The notes under the pieces were generated by a model. The model was given only the letters and a program-made list of their open reading frames with translations, ran no database searches and was not told where the DNA came from. A stretch of DNA of 37,123 bases from a virus (lineage: Duplodnaviria; Caudoviricetes). Position numbers and translations under genes: made by a program. Shown in pieces: positions 913 to 8,336 of the stretch (positions within the stretch are counted from its first letter, which is position 1; every line of letters starts with the position of its first letter). The stretch is from positions 1 to 37,123 of IMG/VR virus record IMGVR_UViG_3300016476_000621; one strand, written 5' to 3'.

Positions 913-938
913 CGGTGAAAAAACATATTCATCCTTGC

Positions 939-967
939 TTGACGAGCAAGAGGGAGCATGGTAAAGC
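939..967 (+). promoter_or_regulatory. Sigma70-like promoter facing against the genome's coding direction
   Basis: TTGACG (939-944), 17-nt spacer, TAAAGC (962-967). The same -35 hexamer occurs at the 8475 and 14730 promoters. Confidence 0.55.
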
Positions 968-974
968 AACAATA

Positions 975-1325
975 AGGTTTGCGTCGTGATGGGCGTAATC
1001 TGCCCTCAGCAAACTGCTCAGAGGCCGGCGTTTCCATCACAGCGCCGGCCTCTTTGTTTGGGTATTCCTCGCCCAGCAGAAGCCAGTAGCGTCCCTGAGC
1101 GGGCAACGCGGGCTGGCGGAGGATTCGGCGCACGATGGACCAGCGAATCAGTCGTGCAAAAGGCGCATCTGCAAAGATGGGTTGCGCTCCCTGCCATTTG
1201 ACCCGGCTTTACTGAGCCAGCCGACCGGGAAGGCAGTGAGACTTGCGACGGGACTCCCGATTCCTATACGGAAGTGGAGCTTGGAGCATGGCAGTTTCCT
1301 GCAAAGGGATTGCTATGCTCTGAAA
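975..1325 (+). ncRNA. Candidate large structured non-coding RNA
   Basis: No convincing ORF. Dense helices, two GCAA tetraloop hairpins (1166-1179, 1284-1320), G-U pairs favouring the + strand, and an upstream promoter. Confidence 0.5.
1020..1059 (+). terminator. Intrinsic terminator / attenuator hairpin
   Basis: AGAGGCCGGCG-12 nt loop-CGCCGGCCTCT (perfect 11-bp stem) followed by TTGTTT. Confidence 0.7.
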
Positions 1326-1465
1326 CAGCCCTCAAGCCTACCGGAAGCACAGCTACTGCACCTCGTCTTCTCGTTCTTGTCGCCGTCTAGCGGCGTTCTT
1401 GTCTGCATCCATGACACAGACCCAAATGACCCAGAAACAGAAGATGTTCAGCAGGATTTCCATAG

Positions 1466-1660
1466 CTAAAGGTGCCTGCGAAGCTCGTCACCGTCAACTG
1501 CAACCTTGTCGCCCGTCTTGTGCAGCCTGACGCACCATTCGCCATTCCAGCCGTCTTGGTCAGCACCAGGGTGCAAAGGCTCCAAAACGGCACCAGATTG
1601 CAGCAGAAGGGGGCGTTGAGCGTCCCAAGTCACCGCGGCGACCGGGTGACGCAGCTTCAT
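1466..1660 (-). CDS. Hypothetical protein
   Basis: ATG at 1660 (MKLRHPVAAVTWD...) overlaps the upstream stop in ATGA fashion. Confidence 0.6.
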   Translation of the reverse strand: MKLRHPVAAVTWDAQRPLLLQSGAVLEPLHPGADQDGWNGEWCVRLHKTGDKVAVDGDELRRHL

Positions 1661-1824
1661 TGCGCCTGGGAGTCCGTAGGGCATTCAATCGGCTCAATAT
1701 CCGGCACCGGCTCAACCTTGCGACTGCACTCAGGACAGACGGCAGTGCCATCGTCCATGATGTCCATAAAGTCACCGCAGCATTCTGGCGGTTCCGGCAT
1801 TTCAGGTGGTTCATCCCATCTCAT
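1657..1824 (-). CDS. Small zinc-ribbon-like protein, 55 aa (not in ORF track)
   Basis: Manual translation MRWDEPPEMPEPPECCGDFMDIMDDGTAVCPECSRKVEPVPDIEPIECPTDSQAQ; ATGA overlaps at both ends. Confidence 0.65.
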   Translation of the reverse strand: MRWDEPPEMPEPPECCGDFMDIMDDGTAVCPECSRKVEPVPDIEPIECPTDSQAQ

Positions 1825-3943: not shown

Positions 3944-4408
3944 TTATGCCTCGTCCTGAACCTCGCTGAACTCACCCTCGATGACGATGTTGTTTGCGTC
4001 AAAAAGGGAGTTCACGCTTTGATGATCAACGCGAAGGCGATGTTCGACCACTGTTTGCGGTTGGTCGTGGAGCGCCTGGATTTTGTCAATGGCCACGGCG
4101 ATGGCGATGGGTAAACTCGCCAGTGGCATATTGTCTACCTCGTCCACAAGTCGCTGACTCCCTTTCGCTGCGAAGTGCGACAGTGTTGCAGCAGTCTGCT
4201 TCTTCCATGCTGCCAGGTTGAACGCAGGGTCACCTTCCTCGGCCTTGTCCCTCAATGCCGCGACAATGTGGTTGGAAAGCTCGAACTTCTTCGCAGTCGC
4301 CACGATGCCGTTTCCGTCCTTCAGGTAGGCTAGCACCTCCTGTTTCACTTCATCAGGTAGGTTCTCGCCTGTGTGCCTGTTCGATGTTGTCTTCAGCTTT
4401 CCTTCCAT
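3944..4408 (-). CDS. HTH protein, putative terminase small subunit
   Basis: ATG at 4408. N-terminal HTH (KQEVLAYLKDGNGIVATAKKFELSNHIV), helical core, then beta-strand/acidic tail (QTVVEHR...VIEGEFSEV), which is the usual TerS architecture. Confidence 0.55.
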   Translation of the reverse strand: MEGKLKTTSNRHTGENLPDEVKQEVLAYLKDGNGIVATAKKFELSNHIVAALRDKAEEGDPAFNLAAWKKQTAATLSHFAAKGSQRLVDEVDNMPLASLPIAIAVAIDKIQALHDQPQTVVEHRLRVDHQSVNSLFDANNIVIEGEFSEVQDEA

Positions 4409-4409
4409 T

Positions 4410-4775
4410 TTAAGCCTTTCTAGTGCGTTTCCGCTGTGTTGATACTGCCTTCTTGCTAGAACGCCGTTTCTCGGCCTTCTTGCCCCATTGCCAGCCCTGC
4501 TCCAGCAGGTGTTCCCAAGCTGGGAAGAATATGCCATCCATGCATCGGACAATCTGTTCTTCCTTGTCATCGTCCAGCCCAAAGCCAACACCAGAGATTG
4601 CCAGTGCAGCGTGCATCAGTTCATGCCTTAGCGTGTTCAACGCCTCGATGGGATTGTCCTTGAGGTCTGAGCGCAGCACAATGGTGCCAGCGTCGTGGAA
4701 ATAGCTGCCGTAGTCGTCAATTTCCGACCAGATTAGCGTTAGCTTCTTGCCGCCGATGGTGATGAATGCGCTCAT
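4410..4775 (-). CDS. Zincin-like HEXXH metallopeptidase
   Basis: TLRHELMHAAL motif with a downstream EE (KEEQIVR). Confidence 0.75.
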   Translation of the reverse strand: MSAFITIGGKKLTLIWSEIDDYGSYFHDAGTIVLRSDLKDNPIEALNTLRHELMHAALAISGVGFGLDDDKEEQIVRCMDGIFFPAWEHLLEQGWQWGKKAEKRRSSKKAVSTQRKRTRKA

Positions 4776-7644: not shown

Positions 7645-8336
7645 AGGCTGATGCGTGCTTGTATTGAGGTTGTCGCGGGTTTCTCGTCTTCCCAGCGTCG
7701 CTGGTTGAGGTAGGTGCCAGGGTGGGGGATGAAGGCACCTCCGTCTTTGGTCCAGCCGTCTTGCTTGGTCTGCCAAGCTAGAGCGGTGAGAACAGCTTGC
7801 AAGTCTGGGCTGGCTTTGGCCCAGGCTTTCTCTGCTGCACCTTTACCGACTTTTCGAGGGTAGGCTTGCCAAAAAGCCTCAAACTCTGCGGAAACGCCTT
7901 GTTCCTTGTTCCTTTCCCTTCCCTTCCCTTCCGCTTTACTGGCGTGGTCCACGCGTGCCTCACGCGTGCCTGACGCGTCAAAGTGTTCAATTTCAAAGCC
8001 TTTCAAATATTCCGGCAGGTCGGACGGTCTTTCCCGATTGTTGATGACTTGGTGCCTGTGAAACGATGGAATGCAGCCAAATTCACGCGACTCTGACGCG
8101 TAGTGGACGAGAAATCCACGCGTGGTCAACGCGTCAAGCACGCGTGAAAAGTCAACGTCATCATAAGGCAGGATGGAAACGCCAAGCCTGCGTGGTTCCC
8201 ATTTAAAGCGTCCTTCTCGGTCGGCTGCACACCAAAGCCCAATGAAGGCGAGGCGGATGGGTAGGCCGGTTTCCTGTTCAAGCTCATGGAGTCCTTCATG
8301 GAGGAAGAACTCGGGCTTAATCGTTCGGATTCTCAT
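7641..8336 (-). CDS. Phage replication initiator / replisome organiser
   Basis: MRIRTIKPEFF...LWCAADREGR N-terminus and FEAFWQAYPRKVGK...FIPHPGTYLNQRRWEDE C-terminus. It lies upstream of dnaB and contains iterons. Confidence 0.85.
   Translation of the reverse strand: MRIRTIKPEFFLHEGLHELEQETGLPIRLAFIGLWCAADREGRFKWEPRRLGVSILPYDDVDFSRVLDALTTRGFLVHYASESREFGCIPSFHRHQVINNRERPSDLPEYLKGFEIEHFDASGTREARVDHASKAEGKGRERNKEQGVSAEFEAFWQAYPRKVGKGAAEKAWAKASPDLQAVLTALAWQTKQDGWTKDGGAFIPHPGTYLNQRRWEDEKPATTSIQARISL
7949..8146. repeat. Iteron array (ACGCGT palindromes), putative replication origin
   Basis: ACGCGT at 7951, 7962, 7973, 8096, 8118, 8129 and 8140; variants at 8085 and 8107; AT-rich stretch at 7981-8011. 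Confidence 0.75.

What the first reader, a model, noticed from the sequence alone, without database searches (positions are those of the whole stretch)
1060..1400. ~350-nt densely structured, ORF-poor region on the otherwise unused strand: candidate large ncRNA
Seen: GCCAGT/GCTGGC enclosing GCGT-CCC/GGG-ACGC; competing helices GATTCG/CGAATC (1122/1144) and GCACGAT/GTCGTGC (1130/1151); CATCT-GCAA-AGATG (1166-1179); nested CTGCC/GGCAG and CCCGG/CCGGG (1191-1236); and a 16-bp hairpin with a GCAA tetraloop (1284-1320). GNRA loops and G-U pairs work on the + strand, matching the upstream promoter. This compact genome has few gaps this large. Inference: an undescribed phage RNA gated by the attenuator. 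It could be a replication-primer RNA (ColE1 RNA II-like, since no primase is visible), a packaging-associated RNA (it lies between terS and terL) or a protein decoy.
Basis: partly seen in the sequence, partly recalled or inferred. Interest (0 to 1): 0.78.

Follow-up and report, generated by a model that had tools for sequence, protein, structure and literature searches.

The report
Swappable large-RNA cassette in freshwater phages
This gene-free stretch encodes a conserved, predicted pseudoknotted RNA fold of about 290 bases that matches no catalogued family; it sits behind a likely promoter and stop-signal switch in an optional slot that related phages fill with either of two unrelated large RNAs, so it likely acts as an exchangeable accessory RNA, probably by binding a host protein.

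Summary
The structure is real and selected on the + strand. The RNA (class A, 1061-1350) was found as 21 distinct sequences (51-99% alike) in one clade of uncultured freshwater tailed phages. Of 55 pairs, 28 change on both sides and 94.5% of cells pair; one pseudoknot covaries; the overlapping ORF is not conserved. No Rfam family matches. It follows a promoter-like site and a 90-nt leader whose terminator loop pairs with an upstream strand in 23 of 23 leaders despite free sequence change. The new point is that the slot is modular. Of 31 close relatives, 27 carry the leader, followed by class A (16), an unrelated class B RNA (9) or class C (2). One has a clean empty site and two carry other DNA. 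The payload changes at least 9 times on the terL tree. A packaging role is therefore unlikely, and an iteron origin in the initiator gene removes the need for a primer RNA. Function is inferred only: most likely a stable protein-binding decoy or antitoxin-like RNA (about 40%). A small nuclease gene directly follows class A in 5 of 23 contigs. Transcription is not shown.

The parts
935..962 (+). Promoter-like site (TTGCTT 935-940 / TTGACG 939-944; -10-like CATGGT 957-962); start predicted near 969
   Evidence: Sequence. Homologues have TATGGT, TATGTT, TATAGT, GATAAT, TAAAAT, TATGAT or TATTAT at the same distance from the leader. Not called by the consensus scan. Inferred.
969..1059 (+). Leader RNA: P1 976-982/1009-1015, small hairpin about 991-1005, hypervariable helix 986-992/1034-1040 into the terminator loop, terminator stem 1020-1053 with U-tract 1053-1059
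   Evidence: 23 leaders: 12 of 20 pairs change on both sides. Loop helix of at least 6 Watson-Crick pairs in 23 of 23 (mean 7.7) against 3.3 with swapped partners. Terminator-like hit; 5-7 T in 8 nt after the stem in all 23.
1061..1123 (+). Class A 5' domain: helices 1067-1070/1119-1122, 1082-1087/1112-1117, 1089-1091/1107-1109, 1093-1095/1101-1103 (CUNNG loop)
   Evidence: helices 1-3: 12 of 16 pairs change on both sides
1124..1250 (+). Class A core: pseudoknot 1124-1129/1220-1225; hairpin 1130-1136/1151-1157; GNRA hairpin 1166-1179; long arm about 1189-1195/1232-1238 and 1202-1205/1226-1229; invariant GGA, AUCAG, UACUGAG; possible short helix 1164-1166/1245-1247
   Evidence: these helices 97-100% paired. 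The 1164/1247 helix is 100% paired but shows only one one-sided change, so it is unproven.
1251..1350 (+). Class A 3' domain: small hairpin about 1262-1274, long hairpin 1284-1320, possible long-range helix 1179-1184/1326-1331; no conserved terminator after it
   Evidence: long hairpin 92% paired, G-U/A-U and G-U/G-C changes. The long-range helix is 83% paired, with no two-sided change, and own vs swapped pairing is not different: unproven. Conservation ends at 1349.
7942..8146 (.). Context only: iteron clusters (ACGCGT, 11-nt spacing, two inverted clusters) inside the replication initiator gene, the likely main origin

Best explanation
This is an optional, exchangeable non-coding RNA cassette of a freshwater phage clade: a likely promoter and a 90-nt leader with a predicted terminator switch sit in front of a 290-nt RNA whose covarying pairs predict a pseudoknotted fold, and that RNA likely works in trans as a stable protein-binding decoy. 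SHOWN: conserved fold on the + strand, non-coding, same slot next to the terL operon, swapped for unrelated class B or C RNAs, absent in some relatives. INFERRED step 1: host sigma-70 polymerase starts near 969; most transcripts stop at 1053-1059; when the upstream strand (986-992) captures the terminator loop first, or a factor stabilises that helix, polymerase reads through. INFERRED step 2: the read-through RNA has no terminator of its own, so its 3' end is probably set by trimming back to the folded domain. INFERRED step 3: the folded RNA binds and titrates a host protein such as a defence nuclease or an RNA-binding regulator; different hosts or defences favour different payloads, which explains swapping and loss. 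Class A may have begun as the RNA partner (antitoxin-like) of the small PD-(D/E)XK-like nuclease that follows it in 5 of 23 contigs, and been kept after that gene was lost. Confidence that it is a real structured RNA cassette is about 0.9; the figure below is for the whole account, including the decoy function.
For: Covariation. Strand: G-U pairs and GNRA loops work only on +; + folds better than - against shuffles in 8 of 9 subfamily representatives. More conserved than neighbouring genes (82-83% vs 72-77% DNA identity). Modularity: 27 of 31 close relatives have the leader, followed by A 16, B 9, C 2. L148 lacks 424 nt present in L144, at one point. L096 (A) and L231 (B) are 100% identical over 2727 nt right after the payload. 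The window and L161 share only the leader, 972-1059, 90%, ending at the U-tract. At least 9 label changes on the terL tree. A, B and C show no significant similarity to each other (best E 0.19). Leader switch: the upstream-strand/loop helix is the nested minimum-energy fold at some length before the terminator is complete in 22 of 23 leaders. The nuclease gene was found only directly behind class A among all fetched loci and its family is small (8 proteins). Precedent for an RNA neutralising the toxin encoded behind it: AbiF/RCd22 (10.1101/2025.04.15.648962, abstract).
Against: No transcript, partner protein or host is identified. No host homologue that it could mimic: 0 of 151 sampled Verrucomicrobiota genomes match the RNA model and 0 of 401 match the nuclease, and that phylum is only a guess at the host. 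18 of 23 class A contigs, the window included, lack the nuclease, and classes B and C are followed by different ORFs in one contig each, which also fits genes hitch-hiking on a promoter. The loop helix overlaps the terminator stem by only about 3 bp, so both may form together and the leader may not switch at all. The counts include near-identical contigs (about 9 subfamilies), and the shuffle control ignores relatedness. The promoter is not called by the scan.
Confidence: 0.4

Rival explanations
1. Accessory R-loop origin: the read-through RNA folds, stays hybridised to its template and primes replication (ColE1 RNA II-like, or like the ARRPOF/GEBRO/PAGEV plasmid motifs); A, B and C are alternative origin modules and the variable leader helix is a specificity (incompatibility) determinant.
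For: Own promoter, no terminator and usually no gene behind the RNA. Size matches the plasmid motifs, 223-349 nt (PMC5737381 section 24). Class B ends in a G6(A/T)G6-8 tract, like G-runs that stabilise primer R-loops (mitochondrial CSB II, PMC3488243 passages; the exact CSB II sequence and the ColE1 G-run are recalled). An optional second origin could be dispensable.
Against: Class A has no G-tract. An iteron origin with initiator and DnaB-like helicase is present. No skew switch at the site. No match in plasmids or to those Rfam families.
Confidence: 0.2
2. Selfish RNA-plus-endonuclease units: each payload is the control region or cofactor of a small nuclease (A: PD-(D/E)XK-like; C: HNH) that spreads the cassette by homing between co-infecting phages; nuclease-free copies are remnants.
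For: The nuclease start overlaps or abuts the RNA 3' end (-12 to +6 nt) in 5 contigs from three class A subfamilies; Pfam HSDR_N/NERD-like weak hits and an HNH hit; precise swapping between conserved flanks.
Against: The fold stays intact with compensatory changes in the 18 contigs without the nuclease, including whole subfamilies; nothing essential is interrupted (empty site in L148), so there is no splicing reason to keep it.
Confidence: 0.17
3. A new ribozyme or RNA-only oligomer (GOLLD/ROOL-like cage) whose activity needs no protein.
For: Size, at least one covarying and two possible pseudoknots, invariant unpaired nucleotides and GNRA loops. GOLLD and ROOL are phage RNAs of unknown function that form RNA-only cages, and ROOL is non-essential (PMC12286853 passages).
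Against: No known ribozyme core by Rfam or by inspection for group I, group II domain V, RNase P P4, HDV and tmRNA features (recalled motifs). Three unrelated folds would all have to be catalytic.
Confidence: 0.15
4. The function is only convergent (antisense) transcription that times early or late gene expression, or a packaging RNA; the payload fold is incidental.
For: The promoter faces against all phage genes, just upstream of the terL operon.
Against: Interference needs no pseudoknotted fold, yet the fold is under selection. Loss in L148, L147 and L152 argues against an essential packaging role.
Confidence: 0.08

Closest known systems
GOLLD and ROOL RNAs (large ornate phage/prophage ncRNAs; PMC5737381, PMC12286853)
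   Same: Phage-encoded, multi-stem, pseudoknotted, function unknown, apparently dispensable.
   Different: 290 nt against about 580 and over 800 nt; no Rfam match; no tRNA genes in this genome; sits behind a terminator-bearing leader in a slot shared with unrelated RNAs.
ARRPOF, GEBRO and PAGEV plasmid motifs; ColE1 RNA II
   Same: Similar length, gene-free context, no obvious downstream gene.
   Different: No match by Rfam or in plasmids; found only in a phage clade that has its own iteron origin; class A lacks a G-tract.
Type III toxin-antitoxin and AbiF/RCd22 systems
   Same: Structured RNA, with a terminator in the transcript, upstream of a small nuclease gene (in 5 of 23 class A contigs).
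   Different: No tandem antitoxin repeats; the terminator lies before the large RNA, not between RNA and gene; the nuclease is PD-(D/E)XK-like, not ToxN or HEPN; most copies have no protein.
ZTP (pfl) riboswitch and antisense-controlled plasmid attenuators (recalled)
   Same: Leader topology: P1 enclosing a single strand and a hairpin, with that strand pairing to the loop of a downstream hairpin linked to termination.
   Different: The loop-pairing sequence varies freely here, so it is unlikely to form a ligand pocket; no Rfam match; it controls an RNA, not a protein gene.
Phage morons (recalled)
   Same: Optional unit with its own promoter and terminator, swapped or lost between conserved flanks.
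   Different: The cargo is a non-coding RNA and the terminator precedes it.

Membership tests
Any Rfam 15 family | Covariance-model score at or above the gathering threshold | tested here: not met
   0 hits in the window; best E 0.3 in 900-1500, all on the terminator hairpin; only tRNAs in 12 related loci; classes B and C best E 0.7 and 1.3
GOLLD / ROOL | Length about 580 to over 800 nt with the family's conserved structure | tested here: not met
   Conserved block is 290 nt (390 with leader); no Rfam match
GOLLD / ROOL | Often near tRNA genes | tested here: not met
   No tRNA in the window
GOLLD / ROOL | Forms RNA-only oligomeric cages | not testable with these tools
   Needs cryo-EM or mass photometry
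ColE1 RNA II-type primer | Own promoter, long structured transcript without terminator at the origin | tested here: inconclusive
   Promoter-like site and no conserved 3' terminator, transcription unshown
ColE1 RNA II-type primer | G-rich tract for a persistent hybrid (recalled) | tested here: not met
   None in class A; present in class B
ColE1 RNA II-type primer | RNase H-processed R-loop primes DNA synthesis | not testable with these tools
   Needs in vitro transcription and replicon assay
phi29-type packaging RNA | Essential and present in all members | tested here: not met
   Empty site in L148, other DNA in L147 and L152
Type III TA antitoxin | Tandem repeats of a short pseudoknot, then a terminator, then a ToxN/CptN/TenpN toxin (recalled) | tested here: not met
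   Single non-repeated RNA; the following protein has no PADLOC family shared by its members and is absent in 18 of 23 contigs
Type III TA antitoxin | RNA binds and neutralises the protein | not testable with these tools
   Needs co-expression and binding tests
Group I / group II intron | Catalytic core and interruption of a gene | tested here: not met
   No Rfam hit; no flanking exons, the empty site lacks promoter and leader too
Intrinsic-terminator attenuator | GC-rich hairpin plus U-tract, and an upstream strand that pairs into it | tested here: met
   (sequence features only)
Intrinsic-terminator attenuator | Read-through changes with a signal | not testable with these tools
   Needs single-round transcription assays
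Protein-coding gene (ORF 1182-1469) | Frame kept in homologues | tested here: not met
   no PHROG or Pfam match

The most novel reading that the evidence does not exclude
This phage clade has a dedicated, regulated expression slot for large non-coding RNAs, a kind of RNA moron, into which at least three unrelated, undescribed ornate RNAs are swapped under selection as RNA-only counter-defence or host-takeover effectors; class A is a domesticated RNA partner of a new nuclease family.
Probability: 0.3. Interest if true: 0.92.

Novelty: new variant of a known kind. Interest (0 to 1): 0.76.

Why it matters
Large structured phage RNAs are rare and their functions (GOLLD, ROOL) are a long-standing open question. 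Here three new ones share one promoter-leader slot, with natural swaps between near-identical flanks and a natural deletion. That gives ready-made comparisons: whatever one payload does, the others probably do by a different fold. At 235-290 nt they are small enough for probing, cryo-EM and pull-downs. The leader is also a new candidate transcription switch with an unusually clear, freely varying loop helix.

Tried and rejected
Single-sequence folding energy: not significant. Rfam: nothing; a 14-bit whalefall-1 hit on class B is chance-level. Cultured phages and plasmids: no DNA match beyond one 29-nt chance hit; TerL has no close cultured relative (best 31%); the nuclease has none. Pattern scans gave chance matches that were dropped after profile search: 2 of 2, 20 of 29, 2 of 8. 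Of the 80 loci fetched with the neighbouring phrog_7595 gene only 2 held the RNA. No leader or class A in the 49 loci with TerL 56-65% or in 8 genome-bin loci; some have little upstream DNA. Expression: no RNA holder listed; the one run guessed as RNA covers the whole 12 kb patchily, so it says nothing. L138 is uninformative: the contig ends before the slot and the whole record has no class A match. Helices considered but unproven: 5'-3' closing helix, 1179/1331, 1164/1247, 1109/1259, loop-loop AUCAG/CUGA and the small hairpin at 1262 show no own-partner advantage. Model R1 had a one-column error in two helices and was not used. Resemblances to HDV, RNase P, tmRNA, group I and group II domain V were checked by eye against recalled motifs and rejected. 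Host: TerL relatives lie in bins of mixed taxa, 3 of 8 Verrucomicrobiota and 1 Lentisphaerae, not enough to name a host. Literature: searches showed no description of this RNA. For PMC10690425 I read part 1 of 5 (its candidates are at most 151 nt) and searched 6 supplementary files for 4 contig names and one motif without a hit; files 1, 2 and 4 were not searched and could hold sub-hairpins of this RNA. Earlier notes of this scan: no look-alike by sequence or place.

Full report
Setting. The window is a 37,123-nt virus record, 96% complete by CheckV, held by freshwater, lagoon and wastewater metagenomes. Its recognisable genes (portal, major head, endolysin, initiator, DnaB-like helicase, methyltransferases) all lie on the - strand. 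terL is split across the two ends; its start is at 416. An HTH-type protein at 3944-4591 is a terS candidate by position and look-alikes only. The finding lies in a gap between small ORFs, about 0.5-0.9 kb upstream of terL.

Observation. Every motif quoted is present, but the region alone folds no better than shuffles (z -0.66). Rfam has no match. Homologues decided the matter. A first set of four contigs keeps 958-1349 at 82-83% identity, above the 72-77% of neighbouring genes. Pattern scans and a TerL-based search widened this to 21 distinct class A sequences from 23 contigs, window included, with mean identity 68% and minimum 51%, in about nine subfamilies. On alignment A5, 94.5% of cells pair and 28 of 55 pairs change on both sides; 3 of 500 shuffles reach that count and slid structures give 1-6. 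G-U pairs and GNRA loops fix the + strand. The ORF at 1182-1469 is broken in 16 of 20 homologues and frame-shifted in the other 4.

The leader. Upstream, 969-1059 is a second conserved element (23 distinct sequences, mean identity 61%). It has P1 (GGUUUGC/GCAAACY, conserved in sequence), a small hairpin, and a terminator-like hairpin with 5-7 U in the next 8 nt. The single strand inside P1 is complementary to the terminator loop in 23 of 23 leaders (6-10 Watson-Crick pairs, mean 7.7) although the sequence differs freely; swapped partners give 3.3. In nested folding of growing transcripts this helix is favoured before the terminator is complete in 22 of 23. It overlaps the terminator stem by only about 3 pairs in the window, so it could be an anti-terminator or a pseudoknot that coexists with the terminator; switching is inferred. 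A -10-like hexamer lies at a fixed distance upstream in all homologues viewed, though the consensus scan does not call the window's copy.

The slot is modular. Among the 80 loci kept of 131 TerL relatives, 31 have TerL at 77% identity or more. Of these, 27 carry the leader. Directly after its U-tract, 16 have class A, 9 have an unrelated class B RNA of about 235-260 nt and 2 have a class C sequence of about 290 nt. Class B shows its own compensatory changes (10 of 40 predicted pairs in 9 sequences) and ends in a C/U-rich strand, a G6(A/T)G6-8 tract and an AG repeat; class C has only two near-identical copies, so its structure is untested. The classes show no significant similarity to each other. 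L148 has a clean empty site: 424 nt of L144 (promoter, leader, RNA) are missing at one point. L147 and L152 carry other DNA, apparently a - strand ORF. L138 ends too early. L096 (A) and L231 (B) are identical over 2727 nt after the payload; the window and L161 share the leader (90%) up to the U-tract and then differ. On a terL DNA tree of 33 rows the payload label needs 9 changes where 3 would be the minimum (L209 was left out; recombination within terL could add to this). A contig in run X2 also replaces 970-1471. A class B pattern scan found 10 loci, all in this clade. The 49 more distant loci and 8 genome-bin loci have neither leader nor class A.

What follows the RNA. No conserved terminator follows it. 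In 5 of 23 class A contigs a 111-129 aa protein with a PD-(D/E)XK-like motif starts within -12 to +6 nt of the RNA end; among all fetched loci it occurs nowhere else and only 8 relatives were found. One class C contig has an HNH gene and one class B contig an unknown 80-aa ORF in the same place. The window has none.

Mechanism. An essential packaging role is excluded by loss. A primer is not needed, since the initiator gene holds iteron clusters beside a DnaB-like helicase; an accessory R-loop origin stays possible, mainly because of class B's G-tract and the size match to plasmid motifs (PMC5737381, section 24 and passages read; PMC3488243, passages). Optional presence, repeated exchange among unrelated folds, retention of the fold without any protein, and occasional linkage to a small nuclease fit best with a trans-acting RNA that binds a host protein, as a decoy or antitoxin-like molecule (precedent: 10.1101/2025.04.15.648962, abstract only). 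I put this at 0.4; origin 0.2, homing unit 0.17, ribozyme or RNA cage 0.15, mere convergent transcription 0.08. No step beyond fold, position and exchange is shown. No host counterpart was found in 151 and 401 sampled Verrucomicrobiota genomes, and the host itself is unknown.

Comparison and novelty. It works like GOLLD and ROOL in being a dispensable ornate phage RNA (PMC12286853, passages) but is not a member of either or of any Rfam family. Six literature searches showed no description; PMC10690425 (part 1 of 5 and six supplements searched, three files not) could list fragments; 10.64898/2026.09.22.753630 (abstract and passages) concerns other RNAs. I rate it a new variant of a known kind, with the shared slot for unrelated large RNAs as the part that may be new in kind.

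Noticed in passing
L161:5316-5553 (-), also L141-L143, L155, L162, L163, L169, L209, L228, L231: Class B RNA, about 235-260 nt, undescribed: several covarying stems, a UGAGA loop, and a 3' C/U-rich strand, G6(A/T)G6-8 tract and AG repeat that could form a triple helix, a switch or a G-quadruplex.
   Followed up: partly
L151:726-1025 (-), L149:994-1293 (-): Class C sequence, about 290 nt, many predicted hairpins, only two near-identical copies; an HNH gene follows in L151.
   Followed up: partly
L133:949-1299 (-), L128, L094, L156, L157: Small PD-(D/E)XK-like nuclease family (8 proteins found) seen only directly behind class A RNA.
   Followed up: partly
window 7942-7978 and 8090-8146: Two inverted clusters of ACGCGT iterons at 11-nt spacing inside the replication initiator gene; likely origin.
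   Followed up: partly
window 933-951: Inverted repeat CTTGCT-TGACG-AGCAAG over the -35 region; CTTG...CAAG palindromes recur at this place in several homologues. Possible operator or overlapping divergent promoter for the terL operon.
   Followed up: no
window 1260-1274 and 1337-1349: The 3' domain carries two similar CC..GAA motifs on either side of the long hairpin that change together across subfamilies (e.g. CAGAAUGAG/UAGAAUGAG in L094); alternative pairing or a duplicated binding site.
   Followed up: partly
window 1309-1338 in run X17: Short contigs matching this stretch have depth 2500-4000 against 9 for the window's own phage in a wastewater metagenome; their loose ends match the L094/L095-type class A, so that relative can be very abundant.
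   Followed up: partly
window 1650-1684: A 34-nt stretch at the start of the 72-aa ORF is 85-92% conserved across otherwise diverged relatives; likely a recombination junction.
   Followed up: no
L206:4979-5308, L210:4773-5205, L175:2932-3233, L207:2239-2808, L218:734-1148: More distant relatives (TerL 56-60%) have 300-570 nt gaps without a sense-strand ORF upstream of terL; they match neither model and were not folded.
   Followed up: no
L094:1454-2107, L096:22-693: Free-standing HNH/AP2-like endonuclease genes inserted between the phrog_7595 gene and terL in some relatives (label from sequence appearance, no call).
   Followed up: no
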